Origin: Candidatus Omnitrophota bacterium
GTDB lineage: Bacteria > Omnitrophota > Gorgyraeia > Zapsychrales > JANLHA01
Length of the DNA stretch: 64,000 nucleotides
Assembly: GCA_038222225.1 (NCBI GenBank)
Contig: JBBRHV010000005.1
Span: 1,824 to 65,823, forward strand
Direction of reading: 5' to 3'
Positions 5,241 to 45,545 of this stretch are shown one piece after another; the stretch's first letter is position 1, and every line of letters starts with the position of its first letter. Both the position numbers and the translations under genes were made by a program. The notes below the pieces were generated by a model. The model was not told the origin of the DNA. It saw only the letters and a program-made list of their open reading frames with translations, and searched no databases.

Positions 5241-5403
5241 ACATCACCTTTTCTTGTTTTGAACAGGGGGTTTAACGTGTTATTTAGTAATGTCATATTA
5301 GTCGTAATAGGGCCTGTGTATAACTATACAAAAATAAAAACCATTGAAAATAAACAACTTATATTAAATATGCTTGTTTACAAGTGGTGTGTTTCCCGTG
5401 TGG

Positions 5404-6744
5404 TTACTGTTTAATAAATGTGATTATCCGATCAATCTGTTTTTTAAGATCGCCATTTTCATCAAGAGCCTTTTCGATCTTGCGGAAAGCATGAAGAATG
5501 GTTGTATGGTCTTTTCCTCCAAAAAGCCCGCCGATTTCCGGAAGCGATAAATTAGTCATTTTTCTTGATAAATACATGGAAATTTGTCTAGGAAGAATGA
5601 TGTTTTTGTTTCTCTTTTTAGATTTAAGCTCGCTTAAGGGAAGATCAAAAAACCGGGCCACTTCTTTTTGAATAGTATCTACGCTAACGATCTTGGATGT
5701 TTCGTGCACCATGTCTTTTAAAACGGTTTTGGCGGTTTCCAGGCTCACAGGGCGCTCCTCTAATAAAGAATAGGCGACAACACGGATCAGAGCCCCCTCC
5801 AGTTCACGGATATTTGTTTTGATTTGTTCCGCAATAAAAAAAATCACGTCTTCCGGGACTTTAACCGGCTCTCGTTCCAGTTTTTTTCTTAGAATCGCAA
5901 CGCGTGTTTCAAAATCCGGCGGATGAATGTCTGCAATTAAACCCCAAGCGAAACGGGAAACTAGGCGCTCTTCCAGATTGGCAATCTCTTTTGGCGGCCG
6001 GTCTGAGGAAATGACGATTTGCTTGTGGCTATTATGAAGAGTGTTAAAGGTGTGAAAAAATTCTTCCTGGGTGGCTTCTTTCCCGGCTATGAAATGGATA
6101 TCGTCGATTAAAATAACATCAATGTTCCGGTATTTTTGGCGGAACTGCGTCGTGGATCTGTTTTTGATGGAGTCGATCAATTCATTGGTGAAATATTCAG
6201 AAGACAGATAAACGCATTTTTTTTCAGGAAACCTTTTTTTAATTTCATGAGCCACAGACTGCATCAGATGAGTTTTTCCTAATCCGACCTGACTATAAAG
6301 GAAAAGCGGGTTATATGATTTCGCCGGAGATTCGGCGACGGCCTTACAGGCCGCAAAAGCAAAGCGGTTAGATGGGCCGATCACAAAATTGTCGAAAGAA
6401 AAACGCGACGCCAGACTCAGAGACGGACGCGGTTCGCTGTCTCTTCCCTCTTGCTGGTACGGTGAAGGGCTTTCTGCGGCGGGTATTTTGGGTGCTTCTT
6501 TGGACAGCGAAGCGTTCACGGTTACGATGACGGACATCGGGCTTTCGGAATGCGAACTTAAAATTTGGCGGATCGTTGAAAGATAGTGATCTTCGAGCCA
6601 GGTTTTGAAAAAATCGTCTGGGGTTTCTAAGACTAGAACGTTCTCTTCTTCTCGTATGTGGATAGACGAGAACCAGGACTCATAGGAAGATGTTCCGATT
6701 TCATTTTTTATTTCATCTTGAATTGTTAGCCAAGTTGCAGACAT
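5404..6744 (-). CDS. dnaA: Chromosomal replication initiator DnaA
   Basis: 446-aa ORF with AAA+ Walker A (GLGKTHL) and a C-terminal DnaA-box-binding domain (ISMYLSRKMTNLSLPEIGGLFGGKDHTTILHAFRKI). Confidence 0.97.
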   Translation of the reverse strand: MSATWLTIQDEIKNEIGTSSYESWFSSIHIREEENVLVLETPDDFFKTWLEDHYLSTIRQILSSHSESPMSVIVTVNASLSKEAPKIPAAESPSPYQQEGRDSEPRPSLSLASRFSFDNFVIGPSNRFAFAACKAVAESPAKSYNPLFLYSQVGLGKTHLMQSVAHEIKKRFPEKKCVYLSSEYFTNELIDSIKNRSTTQFRQKYRNIDVILIDDIHFIAGKEATQEEFFHTFNTLHNSHKQIVISSDRPPKEIANLEERLVSRFAWGLIADIHPPDFETRVAILRKKLEREPVKVPEDVIFFIAEQIKTNIRELEGALIRVVAYSLLEERPVSLETAKTVLKDMVHETSKIVSVDTIQKEVARFFDLPLSELKSKKRNKNIILPRQISMYLSRKMTNLSLPEIGGLFGGKDHTTILHAFRKIEKALDENGDLKKQIDRIITFIKQ

Positions 6745-7076
6745 GTATGTCCGTATGGTTGTGGATGAGTTCCCTTTTCATAAAGTAATTCACAAAATGT
6801 GTAATTTATAACTCTATGGAAAAAGGAACGTTAGGTCCGGTTGAAATTTTTAGTGCACAGGTTTTCCACAGCTGTGAATTTCTTTTTCGGTTTCTTTTTG
6901 CTGTGGAAAAGTGAAATCATTATAGCAAACTCTTTAGTGATTGCAACTGTAAATCTTCTTTGAGGAAAACAATGAAAAATAAAGCTTAGCTAACTTGTTA
7001 CAAATCAAGGGTTTTTCACTCTTTGCGGCATTAAACATCTTGACTGTAAAAAAGACTATGCTATAATTTACAAATT
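6745..7076. promoter_or_regulatory. Candidate oriC / dnaA-rpmH divergent control region with DnaA-box-like 9-mers
   Basis: TGTGGATGA (about 6760-6768), TTTTCCACA (about 6862-6870) and TGTGGAAAA (about 6903-6911) each match the TTATCCACA consensus at 8 of 9 positions. The interval is AT-rich, and the gene-strand polarity switches exactly here. Confidence 0.5.
7040..7067 (+). promoter_or_regulatory. Sigma70-like promoter for rpmH (TTGACT-16-TATAAT)
   Basis: ttgact at 7040-7045 and tataat at 7062-7067, with a 16-nt spacer, about 10 nt upstream of the rpmH ATG. Confidence 0.6.
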
Positions 7077-7214
7077 ATGAAAAAGCATCTTAAAACACCA
7101 ACATTGATTAAAGGCAAGCGGACGCACGGGTTTCGAGCGCGCATGGCAACGGAAGACGGCAGGGACGTGTTAAGCCGCCGGAGAGCTAAAGGCCGTGCCA
7201 AGCTTTCTAAATAA
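7077..7214 (+). CDS. rpmH: 50S ribosomal protein L34
   Basis: 45-aa ORF ([45 protein letters not shown]), below the 60-aa cut-off of the ORF track. It is a classic L34 sequence. Confidence 0.9.
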
Positions 7215-7458
7215 ACACAATTTATCGACGAGCTTTACGTTCATTCTGAAAAGCCTCGTCTGTTTTTTTATTCAGTCCTATCAGAAGATAAGTCATTTGT
7301 GTTTACCGCGAGCTTGTCGGTTTTATCCCACATGTTCTTCGTATGCCTTGGAGGCCGTAGAGCGCTTCGGACTATTTAAGGGAGGATGGAAGGCCGCCAC
7401 GAGGGTTGTGCGGTGCAATCCTTTTTTAAAAGGGGGATACGATCCGGTAGAGGATTAA
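7195..7458 (+). CDS. yidD: Membrane protein insertion efficiency factor YidD
   Basis: Conserved [51 protein letters not shown] core. The start is uncertain; the GTG at 7195 overlaps the rpmH 3' end. Confidence 0.8.
7226..7269 (+). terminator. Rho-independent hairpin plus T-run after rpmH (attenuator inside the 5' end of yidD)
   Basis: Stem gacgagcttt...aaagcctcgtc followed by tgttttttta. This is analogous to the partial terminator that follows rpmH in other bacteria. Confidence 0.55.
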
Positions 7459-7463
7459 CTATT

Positions 7464-9101
7464 ATGGAAAAACGATTTGCGTTAGCGTTGGGGTTGTCTT
7501 TTTTGTTTTTCGTTGTTTGGGGGAGGATTTTCCCGGCAGTAAACTCACCAGTAAGCCTACAACAAACAAAAACCATTGAAAACAAAGAAGTTGCATCGTT
7601 TTCAGTCGGATCCGCAGAGCCGGCTCCTCAATCGCCCATTCAGGCGGCAGAGAGCAGTAAAAATATTCCAGAAGAAGTCTTGACTATTGAGAATGACAAG
7701 ATTCGGGTGTTTATCAGCAATCTTGGCGCCCGAATTGTAAAAGTCGAATTTAAGGAGTATGCTGGGGAAGAGTTTTTTGTTAATTCGGGAGCCGTTCTGG
7801 AATACAGAACAAAAACATATGCGATTGCAAGCAAGGATGGACAAAAAATCAGTCTGATTGGACGTTTTGAAGGTGTAAGCGTTGCTACAAGCTATGAACT
7901 ATCAGAAAACGAATATACTATTTTTGATAAAACAAGAATTTTAAATGAAACAAATGAGGCAAAAGTTGTTAATGCGGAAATTGAGCATGTTTACCTTGAC
8001 GGAGAGTGGCTGAAGGAAACGGTTGATGCTACAACTGGAGAAAAGAAGGACATTGGGCGAGACAAAAACCTTTTAGAATATTCTATCTATAGTAATGGCA
8101 ACGTTTTACGTAAAACAGGGGCCTTCGAATTCAAGGAAAAGGAAAAAAAGCAAGAGTTTTTAAGCGCCGAGTGGTTTGGCTATCGAAACAGATATTTTTG
8201 CTTTATTTCCCGCCCAGATTATACTAATGAAGGGTTCGTTGTAAATCCTATTGATAAGAATCAGCTTTCGCTTTTTGCCATATCTAAGGAAGTCGCCTTG
8301 AATAGGGGAGAGGCGGTTGAGCGTAATAGTTTTATTTATGTAGGGCCACAAAAAGCGTCGGATTTGTCAAAATATAGTGGAAATCTTGAGAAAATCCAGG
8401 TGTATTTTCGTTTTGAATTTTTGGATGCTATTGCAAAAATCATACAGGATGCCATTATATTTTTTCATAAGGGGATACCCAATTGGGGCGTTTGTATTAT
8501 CTTGGTGAGCATTTTGATCTATGGTTTGATGTATCCGCTGACATTCAAAAGCCTGCTTTCTATGAAAAAAATGCAGTCTTTGCAGCCAAAAATTCAAACT
8601 ATTCGGGAAAAGCACGAAGAGAATCCTCAGAAGCTTAATCAGGAAATCATGAAGCTTTATGCAGAGCACAAGATTAACCCTCTTGGAGGTTGTTTGCCTA
8701 TTTTTTTACAGATGCCGATTTTTATTGGGCTTTATCAGGTTTTGTGGCGATCGGTTTGGTTTAAGGGGGCGGGGTTTTTGTGGATTAAAGACCTGTCTGA
8801 GCCGGATCGCTTGATGCTTTTTAGTAAGCATTTCCCGGTTGTTGGAAATGAGCTTAATATTTTACCGTTGGTTATGATGGTTTTGATGTTTGTTCAGCAG
8901 AAAATGTCGACGAGAAGCATGGCAACGACCGACCCGAATCAGCTTGCTCAGCAGAAAATGATGACAACGATTTTTCCCTTGTTTTTAGGGTTTATCTTTT
9001 ATAAACTAGCTAGTGGATTGTCTCTGTATTTCACCATGTTTTATATGATGTCAATTGTCTCACAGATGTTAGTAGCTAAGCACATGAACAAGGATGCGTG
9101 A
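7464..9101 (+). CDS. yidC: Membrane protein insertase YidC (large periplasmic domain type)
   Basis: Start MEKRFALALGLSFLFF (N-terminal TM), a large periplasmic beta-sandwich region, and the conserved C-terminal 5-TM core (PLTFKSLLSMKKMQSLQPKIQ...GGCLPIFLQMPIFIGLY). The track ORF begins earlier at 7386 in the same frame. Confidence 0.95.
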   Translation: MEKRFALALGLSFLFFVVWGRIFPAVNSPVSLQQTKTIENKEVASFSVGSAEPAPQSPIQAAESSKNIPEEVLTIENDKIRVFISNLGARIVKVEFKEYAGEEFFVNSGAVLEYRTKTYAIASKDGQKISLIGRFEGVSVATSYELSENEYTIFDKTRILNETNEAKVVNAEIEHVYLDGEWLKETVDATTGEKKDIGRDKNLLEYSIYSNGNVLRKTGAFEFKEKEKKQEFLSAEWFGYRNRYFCFISRPDYTNEGFVVNPIDKNQLSLFAISKEVALNRGEAVERNSFIYVGPQKASDLSKYSGNLEKIQVYFRFEFLDAIAKIIQDAIIFFHKGIPNWGVCIILVSILIYGLMYPLTFKSLLSMKKMQSLQPKIQTIREKHEENPQKLNQEIMKLYAEHKINPLGGCLPIFLQMPIFIGLYQVLWRSVWFKGAGFLWIKDLSEPDRLMLFSKHFPVVGNELNILPLVMMVLMFVQQKMSTRSMATTDPNQLAQQKMMTTIFPLFLGFIFYKLASGLSLYFTMFYMMSIVSQMLVAKHMNKDA

Positions 9102-13576: not shown

Positions 13577-13647
<71 letters not shown>

Positions 13648-13845
13648 TTATGAAGATTGAGTTTATGGAGAGAGCGGAAGTGAACGAACATAAACTCATA
13701 ACTGAATTAATCCTGCAAAGCAGGATCTTAAAGATGAGTTGCCTTTTGGCCTTTCTTCGCTAAATAATATGCTGGTTTGGCTTTGCAGGGCCCAATTCGC
13801 GCATAAATTTAAGTTCGTTAAAGCCCCATAAACTTAGTGCTTATT

Positions 13846-13928
13846 GGGCAAGTGGTGGAATGGCATACACGCAGGACTTAAAATCCTGTGGCCGCAAGGT
13901 CGTGTGGGTTCGACTCCCACCTTGCCCA
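13846..13928 (+). tRNA. tRNA-Leu (UAA), long variable arm
   Basis: Acceptor gggcaag/cttgccc, anticodon stem cagga/tcctg with loop ctTAAaa, long variable arm, T-arm gtgggttcgactcccac. Confidence 0.85.
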
Positions 13929-13976
13929 TAATGATAAAATTGAAGGTTGGTTGATAGGAATAAAGAAGTGTTTTTG

Positions 13977-13993
13977 GGACCCGTAGCTCAGTT
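13977..13993 (+). pseudogene. Orphan 5' fragment of tRNA-Val (17-nt identity to acceptor + D-arm of the downstream tRNA-Val)
   Basis: ggacccgtagctcagtt is identical to the first 17 nt of the tRNA-Val at 14079. The sequence then diverges and shows no cloverleaf. Confidence 0.4.
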
Positions 13994-14078
13994 TTAGCCA
14001 GAGGCTGATACGCCTCAGGCGGAGGTTAGAGAGGCTGGGCAGAGAGAGCGGGAAAAATTTTGAATTGGTGAAATGTTA

Positions 14079-14155
14079 GGACCCGTAGCTCAGTTGGTTA
14101 GAGCGCTTCCTTGACATGGAAGAGGTCACAAGTTCGAGTCTTGTCGGGTCCACCA
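14079..14155 (+). tRNA. tRNA-Val (GAC) with encoded CCA
   Basis: Acceptor ggacccg/cgggtcc, anticodon stem cttcc/ggaag with loop ttGACat, T-arm aagttcgagtctt, ending ...a-cca. Confidence 0.85.
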
Positions 14156-25339: not shown

Positions 25340-25484
25340 TTTTTGATGGTTTTTTTATAAAAGCCTTTGATGTATATTTCGAAAAATTCTGTTGAGAACC
25401 CAAGTCAAAAATGATACTATAATAATCAAATTAATACTTATAATCATATTAAATATGATTACGTGTACCTTTTGGGTGTCTTGA

Positions 25485-26042
25485 GTGTTGACTTTAAAAA
25501 AAGAAATAAGACAAAGAATTCTTGAGTTGTTGAAACAGCAAAAGGAGGAACAACGGCTTTTAAAAAGCCGCGCTATTGCAGAGCGAGTTGTCAAACTGCA
25601 AGAGTTTCAAAAGGCAAAAGTGATTGTGTTTTATGCATCGCTTGCAGGAGAGGTCGACACATTCGGCCTGATGAAGAAAGCGCTAGATTTGGACAAGGAT
25701 GTTGTATTGCCGTGTGTTTTGTCGGGTACGCATACATTGGAGTTCAGACGTATCCAAGACTTAGACAACGACTTAGAATATGGCCCCTATAATATTCAAC
25801 AACCAAACCGGAACAAAACCCAATCCATTCAACCTGAGTTGGTGGATCTTGTTATTGTGCCCGGCATTGCTTTTGATCGAAGCAACAATCGTCTTGGCCG
25901 GGGGGTCGGATACTACGATCGGTTTTTAGCAAACTTGTCTGCGGATGTCCCTAGCGTTGGTCTCGCGTTTGATTTTCAGATTCTGGAACGCTTGCCCACC
26001 GACCTTCATGATGTTCCTGTTCAACAGGTCATTTCTGCCTAA
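25485..26042 (+). CDS. 5-formyltetrahydrofolate cyclo-ligase
   Basis: 185 aa with the 5-FCL signature ([29 protein letters not shown]). Confidence 0.85.
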
Positions 26043-26109: not shown

Positions 26110-27678
26110 ATGAACTTAGAAAACACGCATTTAGTTACAGCATTTGCATCATTCGCATTAGGAATTTGCTTAGGGATTTTATGGCGGACCTATTTCGCCA
26201 ACAAAAGGATTCGCAAGGCCGAAGACAAAGCCCGTAAGCTTACGGAATTTTCGGAACGTGAAGCGGAAGCGCATAAGAAAGAAGCAGAATTAGCAGGAAA
26301 AGACCTGCTGATCAAGCTGCGTCAGGATTTTGAAAAGGAAACAAAAACCCGGCGGGAAGAGCTGGTTGTGTTGGAAAAACGCCTGCATCAGAAAGAAGAA
26401 AACATTGAGAAGCGTGTTGATCTTCTGGAAAAGAAGGAAAAGGACATTGATTCGAGAGTCGGCGCCTTGCGCAAGGATGAAGAACGGAACAAGCTGCGCG
26501 ATCAAGATTTGAATAATTTGATTGAAGAAGAGAAAAAACGTTTGCAGGAGATCTCTTCGATGACATCCGAACAGGCCAAGGAGCTGCTTTTAAAGCGCAT
26601 GGATGAAGAAATCGTTCATGAAAAGGCGACCCGCTTGCGTCAGATGGAAGAGGACATCAAGGAGAACAGCGAAAAAACAGCGCGTCAGATTCTTACAACC
26701 GCTATTCAGCGCTGCGCTTCGGATCATACCGCCGAAACGACCTTGAGCGTGGTGCCTCTCCCTAACGATGAAATGAAAGGCCGCATTATCGGCCGTGAAG
26801 GGCGCAATATCCGGGCCCTTGAGATGGCAACGGGAGTGGATATTATTATTGATGACACGCCGGAGGCGGTTACGATCTCAGGGTTTGATATGGTTCGTCG
26901 TGAAATTGCCCGCATTGCGCTGGAAAAGCTCATAGCTGACGGGCGGATTCATCCCGGACGCATTGAAGAGGTTGTGGAAAAGGCCAAGCTGGAAATTGAA
27001 AAAATTATTAAAGAAGAGGGCGATAAGGCCGCTTTTGAGATGGGGATTCACCGTATGCATCCTGAGCTTCTTCGGCTGGTCGGAAAATTAAAATACCGCA
27101 CCAGTTTTGGTCAGAATGCACTGATTCATACCAAAGAGGTTGCCCGTATCATGTCTTTAATGGCCACCCAGCTTGGTTTTGATCCTAAAATTGCGCTTCG
27201 CGTCGGGCTTTTGCATGATATCGGGAAAGTCGTGTCTCAGGAAATTGAGGAAGGAACGCATGCTGTTGTCGGTGCGAACCTTGCGAAGAAGCATGGAGAA
27301 AATGAAGTGGTGGTCAACGCCATTGCCTCGCATCATGAAGAGGTCGAATGCAATTCGCTTTACGGTGTTTTACTTTGTGCGGCCGATGCGGTCAGCGCAT
27401 CCCGTCCGGGCGCCCGTGCGGAAACGCTGGATATTTATGTGAAGAGATTGGAAAGCCTGGAAAAAATCGCCAATGCGTTTAAAGGCGTCGAGAAGTCCTA
27501 CGCGCTTCAAGCCGGACGCGAGGTCCGTGTTTTAGTGGAACCGGGGAAGGTGAATGACGATGAAGCGATCGTGATGGCGCGTGATATTCGTAAGCGCGTT
27601 GAGCAGGAGCTGGAATATCCGGGGCAGATCAAAGTCATTGTGGTGCGTGAAACGCGAGCGATTGAATACGCGAAATAA
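26110..27678 (+). CDS. rny: Ribonuclease Y
   Basis: N-terminal TM anchor, a coiled coil, a KH domain ([15 protein letters not shown]) and an HD domain (LLHDIGK...HH). Start at MNLENTHL; the track ORF begins at 25945 in the same frame. Confidence 0.9.
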
Positions 27679-27682
27679 AATA

Positions 27683-27958
27683 GGGCACTGAGACACTATG
27701 TCACCAAGACACTAGAAAAGGAAAAAGATATAAAAATAAAACATGAAAAAGCGCAAACATGATGGATGCGAGACTTTAGTTTATAGGCGGGTTGATTTTT
27801 AAAGGTTGTTTTTTTTGTTGAGTTTTTTAGTGCTTTAGCATCTTTGTGTTTTTTTAGTGTCTTGGTGACATAGTGTCTTGGTTTTTATCTTGCGTGTCTT
27901 AGTGGCGAGTGTCGTGGCGTCTGGGTGTCGTAGTGTCTTGGGTTTTTAGTGTCTTCTA
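27683..27958. repeat. Iteron-like array of (A/C)GTGTC(T/G)T(G/A)G motifs, including a perfect 24-bp inverted repeat
   Basis: agacactatgtcaccaagacacta (27691-27714) is the exact reverse complement of tagtgtcttggtgacatagtgtct (27855-27878). Five further direct copies lie between 27893 and 27955, spaced about 8-21 bp (mostly about 16 bp) apart. Confidence 0.6.
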
Positions 27959-27970
27959 AGAGGTTTTTAA

Positions 27971-28777
27971 ATGATGAATATCCTTTGCATCGGAGATGTG
28001 GTCGGCAAGGCCGGGCGGCAGGTTTTGGAAGAAGAACTTCCAAAGCTGAAGGAGGAATTTGCGCTGGACGCGGTCATCGTCAATGCTGAAAATGCTGCCG
28101 GAGGATCCGGCCTTACGGAGAGAATGGCCAAACAACTTTTCCGCATCGGCTGTGACGCGATCACCCTCGGGGATCATGTGTGGGACCGGGAAGAGTTGCT
28201 TGAGTATTTGAAAGAGGAACCCCGCGTTTTGCGCCCGGCCAATTTCCCCGATGAGGTTCCCGGGGCAGGCTCGGTGGTGATCACGACACAGAAGGGCGTG
28301 CGCATTGGGGTGGTCAGTCTTTTGGGGAGGGTTTTTGTAAAGTATTACACAGAGTGCCCTTTCCGCACCGCGGAACGGCACATTGAGAAGTTGAAGAAGG
28401 AGACCTCGATCATTTTTGTTGATTTTCATGCCGAGGCAACCAGCGAAAAGATCGCCATGGGATGGTTTCTCGATGGAAAGGTGTCGGCTGTTGTCGGGAC
28501 GCATACGCATATTCAGACGGCGGATGAAAGAATTCTTCCCAAAGGGACGGCGTATATTACAGATTTGGGCATGACCGGCCCGTATGATTCGGTGATCGGC
28601 CAGAAGAAAGAAAAAATTATTAAACGGTTCTTAACTGGGCTGCCAGCCCGGTTTGAAGTCGCTAAAGATGATTCCGTTTTGCACGGCGTGATTGTTTCGC
28701 TGGATGAACAAAGCGGAGCTGCGCAGAAGATCATCCGTATACAAAGGAGGCTTGTATGTCTGCCTGGGAAGGACTGA
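27971..28777 (+). CDS. ymdB: YmdB-like metallophosphoesterase (2',3'-cyclic-nucleotide phosphodiesterase family)
   Basis: Conserved N-terminus (ILCIGDVVGKAGR) and GDHVWD, GTHTHIQTADERIL motifs. The rny-ymdB linkage matches that in Bacillus. Confidence 0.85.
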   Translation: MMNILCIGDVVGKAGRQVLEEELPKLKEEFALDAVIVNAENAAGGSGLTERMAKQLFRIGCDAITLGDHVWDREELLEYLKEEPRVLRPANFPDEVPGAGSVVITTQKGVRIGVVSLLGRVFVKYYTECPFRTAERHIEKLKKETSIIFVDFHAEATSEKIAMGWFLDGKVSAVVGTHTHIQTADERILPKGTAYITDLGMTGPYDSVIGQKKEKIIKRFLTGLPARFEVAKDDSVLHGVIVSLDEQSGAAQKIIRIQRRLVCLPGKD

Positions 28778-30578: not shown

Positions 30579-30626
30579 AACGAAGTTGGGTTTGTTATTA
30601 TTGATCTTTCAATTCTGAGTATTTTT

Positions 30627-30697
30627 TGCCCTGTCGTTCAATGGTAGGACACGAGAATCTGGATCTCGGTATCATGGTTCGATCCCATGCGGGGCAG
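30627..30697 (+). tRNA. tRNA-Gln (CUG)
   Basis: Manual cloverleaf: acceptor tgccctg/cggggca, D-stem gttc/ggac, anticodon stem cgaga/tctcg with loop atCTGga, T-arm catggttcgatcccatg. No CCA is encoded. Confidence 0.8.
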
Positions 30698-30845
30698 TAC
30701 TTCATTTCGCGCCCCCCGGAAGAGGGACGCGAAATTATTTGACCCTCGTTTAAAAAAGAACCTGTGGGCGCACACGGGTTCGCCGGCCCTGCGAAGCAGG
30801 GAGCCCAGGCGGCGAAAAATGACTCTAACAAACAGTTGAGTTTTA

Positions 30846-44284: not shown

Positions 44285-45369
44285 AATATATTGATGAATA
44301 TCGAGATGCGGGGCTTGTGAAGACTCTGGCCGAAAAGGTGAGGCGCGTTGTGACGCGGCCATGGACGATCATGGAAGTTTGCGGCGGGCAGACGCATGCC
44401 ATTATCAAGTTCGGCATTGATCAGATTTTGCCTAAAGAAATCACGCTGGTTCACGGCCCCGGATGCCCGGTGTGCGTGACATCCGTTGAGGCCATTGATC
44501 AGGCGGTGTTTATCGCAGCCCAGCCCAATGTGATTTTTTGTTCGTTCGGTGACATGTTGAGGGTTCCGGGAACAAAAAAAGATTTGTTGACCGTTAAAGC
44601 TGAGGGCGGGGATGTGCGCAGCGTGTATTCTCCGATGGACGCGGTCGCAATCGCTCAAAAAAATCCAGAGCGCCACGTTGTTTTTTTTGCTGTTGGATTT
44701 GAAACAACCGCTCCGGCCAACGCCAGCGCTATTCATTATGCGCAGGTGCATCAGGTGACAAATATGTCGTTTTTAGTTTCGCATGTTTTGGTTCCGCCGG
44801 TGATCGAGGCGGTTGTTTCATCAAAGAACAATCATATTCAGGGATTTCTGGCCGCTGGACATGTCTGCACGGTGATGGGCTATCATCAATACGAGCGTTT
44901 GGCGAGAGATTATCACATTCCGATCGTGGTGACCGGGTTTGAGCCGCTGGATATTCTGCAGGGGGTTCTGGCGTGCGTGACCCAGCTTGAGAAGGGGGAG
45001 ACGCGTGTTGAAAATGAATATGCCCGTGTTGTGCGCGCCGAAGGAAATCTGCTCGCGCAGGAGATCATGAAAAAAGTGTTTCAGCTTTCCGATCAGAAAT
45101 GGCGGGGGTTGGGAGTTATTCCCGATAGCGGTTTAAAATTGGCAGACAGTTATAACGCGTATGACGCACAAGTTGTGTTTGATGTCAGTCATATTCAGGC
45201 GGAGGAAAATCCGGAGTGTCAGGCAGGCCAGATTCTGCAGGGCTTGAAGAAGTCGGTGGAATGTCCGGCTTTTGGAACGCGTTGCACACCCGAGCATCCG
45301 TTGGGCGCGCCGATGGTGTCTTCCGAAGGCGCCTGCGCGGCGTATTATAAATACAGGAAAAGACACTAA
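44281..45369 (+). CDS. hypD: Hydrogenase maturation factor HypD
   Basis: CGGQTHA, GPGCPVC and CPVC Fe-S motifs. Confidence 0.95.
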
Positions 45370-45545
45370 GACACCGGGCAGTTTCTAGTGTTATAGTGTC
45401 TTAGCCCTGCGGAATTCGCAGAATTCCCGGGATTGGTCTCCCACGCAAAATAAAATTTTGAATGGGACATTATCTTGGCAAATCTGTGATTTGCTCAAGG
45501 CTAAGACAAGCTTTCAGTTTGTGTAGGATATCCTGGTGTCTTTTA
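45362..45545. repeat. Copies of the CTAAGACAC/GTGTCTTAG motif family in the hypD-hypE intergenic region
   Basis: agacactaagacacc lies at the hypD 3' end, and the inverted pair ctaagacac(21 nt)gtgtcttag follows. Further copies are ggctaagacaag and ggtgtctttt, the same motif as in the 27.7-27.96 kb array. Confidence 0.45.

What the first reader, a model, noticed from the sequence alone, without database searches (positions are those of the whole stretch)
27683..27958. Iteron-like array of a 9-10-bp GTGTCTT(G/A)G motif with a perfect 24-bp inverted repeat upstream of ymdB
The rny-ymdB intergenic region holds a 24-bp sequence (agacactatgtcaccaagacacta) and its exact reverse complement 140 bp downstream. 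At least five further direct copies of (A/C)GTGTC(T/G)T follow, mostly about 16 bp apart, running right up to the ymdB ribosome-binding site. This organisation resembles plasmid or phage iterons, multi-site operators for an unknown DNA-binding protein, or a miniature repeat element. I see no coding capacity here, and the array is too short and spacer-poor to be a CRISPR.
Basis: seen in the sequence. Interest (0 to 1): 0.65.

Follow-up and report, generated by a model that had tools for sequence, protein, structure and literature searches.

The report
Octamer-repeat hairpin element between rny and ymdB
The array is real. It is a gene-less copy of a little-described palindromic repeat built from 8-base units, which occurs in several bacterial phyla and, in its full form, flanks small GxxExxY nuclease genes; it is not an iteron or a dedicated operator.

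Summary
The 295-bp rny-ymdB spacer of this Candidatus Omnitrophota MAG holds a perfect 24-nt inverted repeat that extends to 39 nt at 90% complementarity. Twelve 8-nt-phased units (NNGTGTCN; seven carry an exact GTGTC core) run up to the ymdB ribosome-binding site.

It is not locus-specific:
- A mini-copy lies between hypD and hypE in the same window.
- Spacer-long octamer hairpins of different sequence sit at the same rny-ymdB spacer in three related lineages. Three other relatives have short spacers without arrays.
- A metagenome scan hit its 120-locus limit with (AAGRCACN)n...(GTGYCTTN)n arrays. A Bacteroidales MAG and 35 viral contigs carry them too.
- Paired arms almost always lie CA-arm first, TG-arm second (38 versus 6).
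- That polarity matches the arrays flanking GxxExxY (PD-(D/E)XK) genes: 5 of 5 in array-selected loci, and 2 clear plus 2 borderline of 8 independently sampled genes.

Best reading: a gene-less, REPIN- or intervening-sequence-like palindromic element that folds into a long hairpin inside the rny-ymdB co-transcript. RNase III processing or translational control is inferred, not shown. Iteron, origin and CRISPR readings are rejected. Binding by a DNA-binding protein is not excluded. I found no Rfam family or paper describing this family.

The parts
26110..27678 (+). rny (RNase Y), the upstream flanking gene; stop codon TAA at 27676-27678
   Evidence: Pfam RNase_Y_N, KH_1 and HD domains. The start is inferred from the 522-aa gene call of the identical contig L001.
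27683..27714 (-). Left (CA-rich) arm. Read on the minus strand it is four octamer units: TAGTGTCT TGGTGACA TAGTGTCT CAGTGCCC. It begins 5 nt after the rny stop codon.
27691..27729 (+). 5' arm of the inverted repeat. It is 39 nt and 90% complementary to 27840-27878; the perfect 24-nt core is 27691-27714.
   Evidence: pair I1; 29-nt ungapped stem, 27691-27719 with 27850-27878
27730..27839 (+). Centre of the element: an A-rich half followed by a T-rich half. These pair imperfectly and extend the hairpin. No conserved ORF and no sigma-70-like promoter on the + strand.
   Evidence: RNA fold of 27675-27975: -91.1 kcal/mol, z = -5.6, 0 of 100 shuffles as stable. Promoter scan.
27840..27878 (+). 3' arm of the inverted repeat, followed by TGGTTTTTATCTT
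27855..27886 (+). Proximal right (TG-rich) array: TAGTGTCT TGGTGACA TAGTGTCT TGGTTTTT
   Evidence: unit table
27892..27957 (+). Distal right array of eight more units: GCGTGTCT TAGTGGCG(A) GAGTGTCG TGGCGTCT GGGTGTCG TAGTGTCT TGGGTTTT TAGTGTCT. It has no partner on the left. It can pair with the left arm in alternative registers at 71-85% complementarity.
   Evidence: (pairs I2, I3, I5)
27958..27976 (+). ymdB ribosome-binding site AAGAGG (27958-27963) and start codon. The 267-aa product that is 100% identical to P0001 starts at 27974; an alternative ATG lies at 27971.
45358..45404 (+). Second, small copy of the same element between hypD and hypE: AAGACACTAAGACAC, an 11-nt loop, then TAGTGTTATAGTGTCTTAG. 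The hypD ORF ends on the TAA of a CACTAAGA unit.
   Evidence: Fold -23.4 kcal/mol, z = -4.2. The HypD domain ends 3 residues before the stop.

Best explanation
The array is a gene-less copy of a widespread palindromic repeat element. Each element consists of a 5' array of CA-rich octamers (CACNAAGR type; here AGACACTA and TGTCACCA) and a 3' array of the complementary TG-rich octamers (GTGYCTTN type; here TAGTGTCT and TGGTGACA).

In the full-length form, the two arrays flank a small GxxExxY (PD-(D/E)XK nuclease-fold) gene that sits in sense orientation between housekeeping genes. In the far commoner short form, the two arrays face each other and form a hairpin. The copy here lies directly after the rny stop codon.

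Shown:
- The repeat architecture, its 8-nt period and its polarity.
- Dispersal within the window and across phyla.
- Presence or absence at the orthologous site in relatives.
- The physical association of such arrays with GxxExxY genes.

Inferred:
- rny and ymdB are co-transcribed, because no promoter-like site was found in the spacer.
- The transcript folds into a hairpin of about 190 nt whose base is a duplex of 29-39 bp.
- That duplex acts like the stems of 23S rRNA intervening sequences. It would be an RNase III processing or stability site that uncouples the rny and ymdB messages and could modulate ymdB translation through alternative pairing with the surplus right-hand units.
- The element originated by insertion, possibly mobilised by or with the nuclease gene, and was then kept and remodelled in place.
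For: Within the window
- The inverted repeat and the 8-nt periodicity are far beyond chance.
- A second copy of the same units lies in the hypD-hypE spacer.

At the orthologous spacer in relatives
- Synteny is conserved throughout.
- Spacers with YmdB 84% and 82% identical (L002, L006) are 135 and 145 bp. They have inverted GTGYC units and fold into spacer-long hairpins (-45.5 and -40.4 kcal/mol, z = -3.9 and -3.0).
- L180 (68% identity) carries a different octamer hairpin, AAGTGCCC/TTGGGAAC, at -50.8 kcal/mol.
- L007, L176 and L178 have spacers of 24-65 nt without arrays.

Across other genomes
- All 7 genome-contig hits to TAGTGTCTTGGNNNNNTAGTGTCT are tandem octamers. They include arrays of 17 and 10 units in MAG KR_bin-2776, which is Bacteroidales.
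- The metagenome scan reached its limit at 120 loci.
- Paired arms within 150 nt lie CA-then-TG 38 times and TG-then-CA 6 times. In viral loci the counts are 5 and 0.
- Stems are 20-49 bp, often perfect.
- 28 of 96 arrays lie within 200 nt of a contig end, where 14 are expected. Multi-copy repeats commonly break assemblies in this way.

Link to GxxExxY genes
- TIGR04256/PF13366 was confirmed for the L039 gene.
- In L039, L109, L025, L071 and L043 the gene is immediately flanked by arrays as 5'-CA array, gene, TG array-3'. L043 uses the same CACTAAGA/TTAGTGTC variant as the window.
- No other ORF family recurs next to arrays.
- Of 8 independently sampled GxxExxY genes from PLSDB, 2 show clear inverted octamer flanks (L137 score 21, L138 score 16; shuffle maximum 12). 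Two are borderline and one has an adjacent full hairpin. The genes sit between co-directional housekeeping genes such as fabD and fabG.

Precedent
- The Coxiella 23S intervening sequence has a 28-bp terminal stem, tandem heptamers (GACAGAT) of variable number in front of a small ORF, and is excised by RNase III (PMC4990558).
Against: - No GxxExxY gene was found in the 64-kb window, and the rest of this MAG could not be searched. A link between this particular copy and a nuclease gene is therefore by analogy only.
- Only 2-4 of 8 independently sampled GxxExxY genes have inverted octamer flanks.
- More than 90% of arrays have no gene nearby.
- No target-site duplications or other footprints of transposition were seen, and no filled-versus-empty site pair with exact borders was found. 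Mobility is not demonstrated.
- Single-arm arrays show no clear orientation relative to flanking co-directional genes (18 versus 8-10). This does not support a strand-specific RNA role.
- The gene calls behind those context statistics are crude ORF heuristics.
- The element has persisted at this locus through at least three lineages, which could equally mean it is a host regulatory structure.
- RNase III processing, co-transcription and any effect on ymdB are untested.
Confidence: 0.6

Rival explanations
1. The units are a DNA-level binding array. A nucleoid-associated or global regulatory protein recognises GTGYC on both strands, and the array modulates ymdB transcription or local chromosome structure.
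For: - Units occur on both strands, which suits recognition of double-stranded DNA.
- Single-arm arrays show no orientation bias relative to genes.
- The Geobacter metallireducens genome paper interpreted 24 pairs of four tandem octamers (GTTGCTYN) on opposite strands as sites for an unidentified global regulator, or for IHF/HU (PMC2700814).
Against: - An 8-bp period puts successive sites on different faces of the helix.
- The unit sequence differs completely between orthologous spacers (GTGTC, GCGCT, GGGAAC), while pairing between the arms is kept.
- The strong CA-then-TG polarity (38 versus 6) is not expected for simple binding sites.
- No regulator gene is linked to the arrays.
- The arrays occur next to functionally unrelated genes in several phyla.
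Confidence: 0.15
2. It is a locally evolved RNA structure of the rny-ymdB operon: a partial terminator, attenuator or 3'-end stabiliser for rny built by slippage of short repeats. It would not be a mobile or dispersed element.
For: - A spacer-long hairpin is kept at this site in four lineages despite sequence turnover.
- In the window the stem is followed by TGGTTTTTATCTT.
- Many soil family members contain a canonical GC-rich hairpin with A and T tracts, AAAGAAAGGCCGC...GCGGCCTTTCTTT.
Against: - The same units form a hairpin at hypD-hypE and arrays in unrelated genomes.
- The orthologous hairpins lack a U tract and abut the ymdB ribosome-binding site or start codon, so read-through is needed for ymdB expression.
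- The terminator scan found none here, although that scan only accepts loops of 3-8 nt.
- This rival overlaps with the main explanation on function and differs only on origin.
Confidence: 0.15
3. It is a functionless simple-sequence expansion: replication slippage of an octamer, plus a chance inverted duplication.
For: - Tandem short repeats arise by slippage.
- Short (GTGTCTTR)3 runs also occur sporadically, for example in Bacillus salitolerans. In Bacteroidales they even occur as coding sequence for a lipoprotein signal peptide.
Against: - Slippage does not explain the perfect 24-nt inverted copy 140 nt away.
- It does not explain conservation of a hairpin at the orthologous spacer.
- It does not explain the fixed polarity across about 45 paired elements, or the association with one gene family.
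Confidence: 0.06
4. It is a set of plasmid or phage iterons or a replication origin, or a CRISPR-like array.
For: Direct repeats lie next to an AT-rich stretch. Related arrays occur on IMG/VR viral contigs.
Against: - There is no rep, integrase or cas gene.
- Both flanks are conserved syntenic housekeeping genes.
- dnaA, with DnaA-box-like sequences next to it, is about 21 kb away.
- The units are 8 nt with no spacers.
- The specific two-unit pattern is absent from viral contigs.
Confidence: 0.02

Closest known systems
23S rRNA intervening sequences (IVS), e.g. Coxiella burnetii, Leptospira, Salmonella
   Same: Both are inserted elements bordered by complementary termini that form a stem of about 28 bp or more. 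Both exist with or without a small ORF of unknown role. The Coxiella IVS has tandem short CA-rich repeats (GACAGAT, copy number variable between strains) just inside the 5' arm. It is excised at the stem by RNase III and is thought to be a relic of a mobile element (PMC4990558).
   Different: IVS lie in helices 25 and 45 of 23S rRNA and carry S23p four-helix-bundle ORFs. This element lies in an mRNA operon spacer, its arms are octamer arrays, and the cargo seen in related copies is a GxxExxY nuclease-fold gene. RNase III cleavage has not been tested here.
REP / REPIN elements and their RAYT transposases
   Same: Both are short dispersed extragenic palindromes, often arranged as inverted doublets that form hairpins. 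Both lie mostly after gene ends in operon spacers, lack target-site duplications, outnumber a single associated protein-coding gene that is itself flanked by the repeats, and break assemblies.
   Different: REP units are single imperfect palindromes of 20-40 nt, not tandem octamers. The associated gene is a Y1 (IS200-like) transposase, not a PD-(D/E)XK-fold protein. REP families are genus-specific, whereas this octamer recurs across phyla.
Paired tandem-octamer sites of Geobacter metallireducens (class 1, GTTGCTYN) and cyanobacterial STRR heptamer repeats
   Same: Both are arrays of 3-5 tandem 7-8-nt units in intergenic regions. In Geobacter they occur as pairs on opposite strands at variable distance, in dozens of copies, with function unknown (PMC2700814).
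   Different: The unit sequences differ. The Geobacter sites were proposed to bind IHF/HU or a global regulator, and insertion sequences insert beside them. No link to GxxExxY genes or to hairpin polarity was reported.
MITEs (miniature inverted-repeat transposable elements)
   Same: Both are short, gene-less, bounded by inverted repeats and dispersed. The relation to longer gene-carrying copies is similar.
   Different: No target-site duplication was found, and there is no DDE transposase partner. The arms are internally repetitive rather than unique terminal inverted repeats.

Membership tests
Octamer-array palindromic elements (operational family defined here) | Tandem units with an 8-nt period and a GTGYC / GRCAC core | tested here: met
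   Twelve phased units on the right and four on the left. Autocorrelation peaks at lags 8, 16 and 24.
Octamer-array palindromic elements (operational family defined here) | Polarity: CA-rich arm 5', TG-rich arm 3', with the arms complementary | tested here: met
   The window has the CA arm at 27683-27714 and the TG arm at 27855-27886, with 24 nt perfect complementarity. In the family the counts are 38 CA-then-TG against 6 TG-then-CA.
Octamer-array palindromic elements (operational family defined here) | Lies in an intergenic spacer, starting at or within a few nt of the upstream stop codon | tested here: met
   It starts 5 nt after the rny stop. The hypD copy supplies the stop codon itself. 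The same is seen in L018, L016, L137 and L136.
Octamer-array palindromic elements (operational family defined here) | Multi-copy in the host genome | tested here: inconclusive
   Two loci were found in 64 kb. The rest of the MAG is not in genome contigs and could not be scanned.
Octamer-array palindromic elements (operational family defined here) | Cargo-bearing copies (GxxExxY gene between the arms) in the same genome | not testable with these tools
   None in the window by tblastn. Other contigs of the MAG are unavailable.
23S rRNA intervening sequence | Located in helix 25 or 45 of the 23S rRNA gene | tested here: not met
   It lies between protein-coding genes rny and ymdB. Rfam gives no rRNA match here.
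23S rRNA intervening sequence | Terminal inverted repeats forming a stem of 20 bp or more; excision by RNase III | tested here: inconclusive
   A stem of 29-39 bp is present. Cleavage cannot be tested in silico.
REP / REPIN | Unit is a single imperfect palindrome of 20-40 nt; a RAYT (Y1 transposase) gene is flanked by the repeats | tested here: not met
   The arms are tandem octamers. The only recurrent flanked gene is GxxExxY, PF13366.
MITE | Terminal inverted repeats plus target-site duplication | tested here: not met
   No direct duplication flanks 38 hairpin elements or the window copy.
Plasmid/phage iterons or replication origin | Directly repeated sites of 17-22 bp next to a rep (or dnaA) gene and an AT-rich unwinding element | tested here: not met
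   The unit is 8 nt and no rep gene is present. dnaA is at 5404-6744, with DnaA-box-like sequences next to it. Housekeeping flanks are syntenic in 7 relatives.
Intrinsic (Rho-independent) terminator | Short GC-rich stem-loop followed directly by a U tract | tested here: inconclusive
   The scan found none in the spacer, but it only accepts loops of 3-8 nt. The long stem is followed by UGGUUUUUAUCUU in the window. Orthologous hairpins lack a U tract.
CRISPR array | Repeats of 24-48 nt separated by unique spacers of similar length; cas genes nearby | tested here: not met
   The units are 8 nt and head-to-tail, with no cas genes nearby.
Any Rfam RNA family | Match at or above the family's gathering score | tested here: not met
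   Only sub-threshold matches to plant miRNA precursors, which reflect a generic long hairpin. Twelve family loci gave nothing but one tRNA.

The most novel reading that the evidence does not exclude
Inverted arrays of CAC/GTG-core octamers define a cross-phylum class of selfish or domesticated cassettes. Full copies carry a GxxExxY PD-(D/E)XK nuclease gene between a 5' CA array and a 3' TG array, and they insert in sense orientation right after stop codons inside operons. Gene-less hairpin derivatives vastly outnumber the full copies. In effect they would be intervening sequences of messenger RNAs: the arms pair in the transcript and are processed, for example by RNase III, so that the host operon tolerates the insertion, while the nuclease and arrays mediate spread or maintenance. 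The rny-ymdB array would be such a derivative, retained and remodelled over several Omnitrophota lineages.
Probability: 0.35. Interest if true: 0.75.

Novelty: new variant of a known kind. Interest (0 to 1): 0.55.

Why it matters
- It would give a concrete genomic context, and a testable nucleic-acid partner, for GxxExxY/PDDEXK_3. This is a multi-copy protein family listed with unknown function (PMC3424549), and it has no PDB relative detectable by sequence.
- It would tie together scattered observations: the tandem repeats and stems of 23S rRNA intervening sequences, and the paired octamer sites of Geobacter. Together they could form one class of hairpin elements.
- For annotation, these arrays generate spurious ORFs with motifs such as HEGTKARR and FVPSCLRA. 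They also break assemblies and can be mistaken for iterons or operators.
- For this operon, a duplex of 29-39 bp between rny and ymdB is a plausible point of differential expression of the RNase Y gene and its partner gene.

Tried and rejected
- Rfam on the spacer at a permissive threshold, and on 12 family loci at gathering threshold. Only generic long-hairpin (plant miRNA precursor) noise and one tRNA turned up.
- Promoter and terminator consensus scan of 27500-28100. Nothing was found on the + strand in the spacer.
- Small ORF in the element centre (MKKRKHDGCETL). It is not conserved in L006 or L002.
- An internal TGTC-N5-GACA palindrome as a dimer-binding site. It is not conserved in L006.
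- Exact look-up of the 268-aa YmdB. It failed because the recorded product starts one codon later.
- Phage or plasmid origin. The two-unit pattern is absent from viral contigs and GxxExxY has no hits in INPHARED phages. The looser three-unit pattern does occur on 35 IMG/VR contigs, without GxxExxY.
- Search for other gene families recurrently next to arrays. None was found apart from GxxExxY.
- Target-site duplications at hairpin borders. None was seen.
- Orientation of single arrays and gene context of hairpins. There was no significant bias, and the gene calls were heuristic.
- Querying the protein database with the array-encoded peptide (HEGTKARR)x5 to find cargo genes fused by annotation. 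It returned only 20 short domain-less ORFs.
- Strain comparison of the KR_bin-2776 arrays through P0121. No DNA was available.
- PDB sequence search with GxxExxY. No hit.
- Literature searches for the octamers, the array-encoded peptides, GxxExxY, PF13366 and TIGR04256. No description of the arrays was found.
- RNA-protein motif analogies (TRAP, HutP, PUF, KH-domain YCAY clusters), a Chi-site or DNA-uptake-sequence reading, and a match to the RNA polymerase pause consensus. These were considered from memory only and dropped, because units occur on both strands and no test was possible.

Full report
**What is in the window**

The window comes from a Candidatus Omnitrophota MAG. Its YmdB is 100% identical to P0001, and the nearest named relatives are Omnitrophota/Omnitrophica. 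The region reads 5-FTHF cyclo-ligase, rny (RNase_Y_N, KH and HD domains), a 295-bp spacer, ymdB, then a PilZ gene, all on the + strand.

- The 24-mer at 27691-27714 recurs as an exact reverse complement at 27855-27878.
- The arms extend to 39 nt at 90% complementarity.
- GTGTC cores continue at 27894, 27909, 27925, 27933 and 27949, up to the AAGAGG ribosome-binding site.

The array is not chance.
- GTGTCTT occurs 21 times in the window against 4.9 expected, and 6 of the 21 are in this spacer.
- Seven GTGTC cores lie in 103 nt where 0.07 are expected (P about 1e-12).
- Base identity peaks at lags 8, 16 and 24.

The true unit is therefore an octamer (TAGTGTCT, TGGTGACA, TGGTTTTT and so on). The left arm is four such units on the other strand. 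The right side has twelve units, eight of them without a partner on the left.

As RNA, the spacer folds into one long hairpin: -91.1 kcal/mol, z = -5.6.

**It is not unique to this spacer**

A second cluster of the motif lies in the hypD-hypE spacer at 45358-45404. It has two CA units, an 11-nt loop and two TG units, and folds at -23.4 kcal/mol with z = -4.2. The hypD reading frame ends on the TAA of a CACTAAGA unit, three residues after the end of the HypD domain. The other long intergenic regions of the window have no such arrays.

**The orthologous spacer in relatives**

Synteny is conserved in all seven related contigs examined.

| Locus | YmdB identity | Spacer | Content |
|---|---|---|---|
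| L002-L005 (identical to each other) | 84% | 135 bp | inverted GTGYC/GCGC units around an A-rich then T-rich centre; hairpin -45.5 kcal/mol, z = -3.9 |
| L006 | 82% | 145 bp | same layout; hairpin -40.4 kcal/mol, z = -3.0 |
| L180 | 68% | 84 bp | a different octamer hairpin, AAGTGCCC... / ...TTGGGAAC; -50.8 kcal/mol |
| L007 | 72% | 24 nt | no arrays |
| L178 | 69% | 39 nt | no arrays |
| L176 | 71% | 65 nt | no arrays |

So the element is present in some lineages and absent in others. Where it is present, its sequence has turned over completely while pairing between the arms is kept.

**The same octamers elsewhere**

- *Genome scan.* Scanning one genome per species for TAGTGTCTTGGNNNNNTAGTGTCT gave 7 loci, and all of them are tandem octamer arrays.
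  - Two contigs of MAG KR_bin-2776 carry arrays of 17 and 10 units, plus further arrays and other period-8 repeats in every intergenic region of L010.
  - Its ParE is 83% identical to Bacteroidales proteins, so this carrier belongs to another phylum.
  - In three other Bacteroidales MAGs the same DNA is coding sequence for a lipoprotein signal peptide. This is a reminder that short runs can arise or be co-opted independently.
- *Metagenome scan.* Scanning for three GTGYCTT units hit the 120-locus limit. The sample names include a fermentation metagenome and ENA or NCBI assemblies; most habitats were not looked up.
- *Viral contigs.* IMG/VR gave 35 loci. Two contigs of 66-68% GC carry at least 6 and at least 4 arrays.

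**Family anatomy**

- *Polarity.* Where two arms lie within 150 nt, the order is CA-rich arm then TG-rich arm in 38 cases and the reverse in 6. In viral loci the counts are 5 and 0. This order is unchanged by reverse complementation, so the bias is a real polarity. The reverse cases I inspected, such as L022, look like the end of one element abutting the start of the next.
- *Stems.* They are 20-49 bp and often perfect even at the variable unit positions. A soil subgroup encloses a GC-rich hairpin with A and T tracts.
- *Borders.* No target-site duplications were seen.
- *Copy number.* Arrays lie near contig ends twice as often as expected (28 of 96 against 14), which fits multi-copy repeats.
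- *Context.* Hairpins with callable flanks lie mostly between co-directional genes. Single arrays show no clear strand preference relative to those genes. Both results rest on heuristic ORF calls.
- *Rfam.* No family matches.

**The link to a gene**

In L039 the two arms are 402 bp apart and enclose a 144-aa ORF. It matches TIGR04256 (GxxExxY, E = 2.9e-41) and PF13366 (PDDEXK_3, E = 1.5e-39).

A tblastn search found five GxxExxY genes among the array-selected loci. Every one is immediately flanked by arrays in the order 5'-CA array, gene, TG array-3'. The unit variants differ by lineage: GGCAC, GCGAAG and CAGAGG types. L043 has the window's own CACTAAGA/TTAGTGTC type. No other small-ORF family recurs beside arrays.

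As a reverse test that does not depend on the arrays, I took all 8 PLSDB records that encode GxxExxY.
- Bacteroides finegoldii (IR score 21) and Bernardetia (16) have clear inverted octamer flanks, CACAGAGG / CCTCTGTG. The maximum score in shuffles was 12.
- Sphingomonas and Treponema have one-unit inverted flanks (score 11, borderline).
- Gemmatirosa has a complete hairpin element just downstream of the gene.
- Three records have none. One of these has 22-nt direct repeats instead.

The genes sit in sense orientation between housekeeping genes, for example fabD-X-fabG and radA-X. The link is therefore real but not universal, and more than 90% of arrays are gene-less.

**Interpretation**

The simplest account of all this is that the rny-ymdB array is a gene-less member of a palindromic repeat family. 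The architecture and polarity of the family are those of the arrays that bracket GxxExxY cassettes.

For how it works at this locus:
- No promoter-like site was found in the spacer, and orthologous hairpins abut the ymdB ribosome-binding site or start codon. The element is therefore most probably transcribed within an rny-ymdB message.
- There it would form a duplex of 29-39 bp at the base of a hairpin of about 190 nt.
- A 130-nt loop makes cruciform extrusion in double-stranded DNA unlikely here. This is my inference.
- The closest characterised analogue is the 23S rRNA intervening sequence. The Coxiella element has a 28-bp terminal stem, tandem GACAGAT heptamers of variable number ahead of a small ORF, and is excised by RNase III (PMC4990558).

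By analogy, I propose RNase III processing or a stability determinant that uncouples the two cistrons. The surplus right-hand units offer alternative pairings next to the ribosome-binding site (pairs I2, I3, I5). These steps are inferred, not shown.

**Rivals**

- *A general DNA-binding protein.* This was proposed for the paired GTTGCTYN octamers of Geobacter metallireducens (PMC2700814) and cannot be excluded. It explains the polarity and the conservation of arm complementarity poorly.
- *A purely local regulatory hairpin.* It is contradicted by the dispersal of the same units.
- *Iteron or origin.* It is contradicted by the gene context and by dnaA, with DnaA-box-like sequences next to it, about 21 kb upstream.
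- *CRISPR.* The anatomy excludes it.

**Novelty and limits**

I found no paper describing these arrays or their link to GxxExxY, no Rfam family, and no PDB relative of the protein detectable by sequence. The kind of object is familiar: REP/REPIN elements, MITEs and intervening sequences. The variant is apparently not described: octamer arrays, fixed polarity, a PD-(D/E)XK cargo and cross-phylum reach.

Main limits:
- The rest of this MAG could not be searched.
- Mobility is not demonstrated.
- Gene-context statistics rest on crude ORF calls.
- The metagenome sample was selected with one unit pattern, so variation within the core cannot be judged from it.

Noticed in passing
window 5404-7385: Probable chromosomal origin region. 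dnaA is at 5404-6744 (minus strand). A 641-bp intergenic region follows, with inverted DnaA-box-like TTTTCCACA / TGTGGAAAA and an rpmH-like small ORF, then yidC at 7386-9101. Gene orientation switches here: almost everything downstream is on the + strand.
   Followed up: partly
L180 2417-2500: A more distant Omnitrophota relative (YmdB 68% identical) has a hairpin at the same rny-ymdB spacer built from a different octamer (AAGTGCCC/AGGTTCCC paired with TTGGGAAC/TTGGGTGC), at -50.8 kcal/mol. Its 3' arm ends 4 nt before the ymdB ATG, so any ribosome-binding site would lie inside the stem.
   Followed up: partly
L010 248-295, 2242-2580, 6053-6400, 7325-7496: The Bacteroidales MAG KR_bin-2776 has several other period-8 tandem arrays (ATTGTTCT, ATTGTATA, ATAACAAT, CACAGAGG-like) alongside (CTTGGTGT)n in every intergenic region of a 7.7-kb contig. 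This suggests a general octamer-repeat phenomenon rather than a single motif.
   Followed up: partly
L008 2741-2790; also L011 and L012: In Bacteroidales (Candidatus Limimorpha and a relative), the DNA TTAGTGTCTTGGTGTCTTAGTGTCTTGGTGTC is coding. It encodes the hydrophobic core of a lipoprotein signal peptide, ..RRLVILVSWCLSVLVSLTSC.
   Followed up: partly
L149, L152, L158, L159 (IMG/VR contigs 3300028648_000006 and _000008): High-GC viral or prophage contigs carry many single-arm arrays, TTAACAC(CAAGGCAC)n, between genes, plus heptamer arrays (GGCACTR). No GxxExxY gene was seen in them.
   Followed up: partly
L181 (Fusobacteria plasmid pZRK30-1), flanks of the gene at 292-666: This GxxExxY gene is flanked by 22-nt direct repeats (cagatttaatccgtgtacctat) rather than inverted octamers. 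This points to more than one type of GxxExxY cassette.
   Followed up: no
window 25473-25491: An isolated two-unit match, GGGTGTCT TGAGTGTT, lies at the start of the 5-FTHF cyclo-ligase ORF upstream of rny. It may be chance.
   Followed up: no
window 13577-14155 and 30626-30698; L176/L178 about 5332-5617: A tRNA-Cys/Leu/Val cluster, and a tRNA-Gln between the gltX-like and glnS genes. At that second position, relatives L176 and L178 carry an 80-84-aa GIY-YIG gene.
   Followed up: no
L039 1148-1193, L025, L036, L061, L126: Array DNA is translated in spurious or over-extended ORFs as 8-residue periodic peptides, for example HEGTKARR or HKGTKAQR from the CA strand and FVPSCLRA from the TG strand. 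All three reading frames give the same cyclic peptide. This is a likely source of odd N-termini in annotated GxxExxY proteins.
   Followed up: partly
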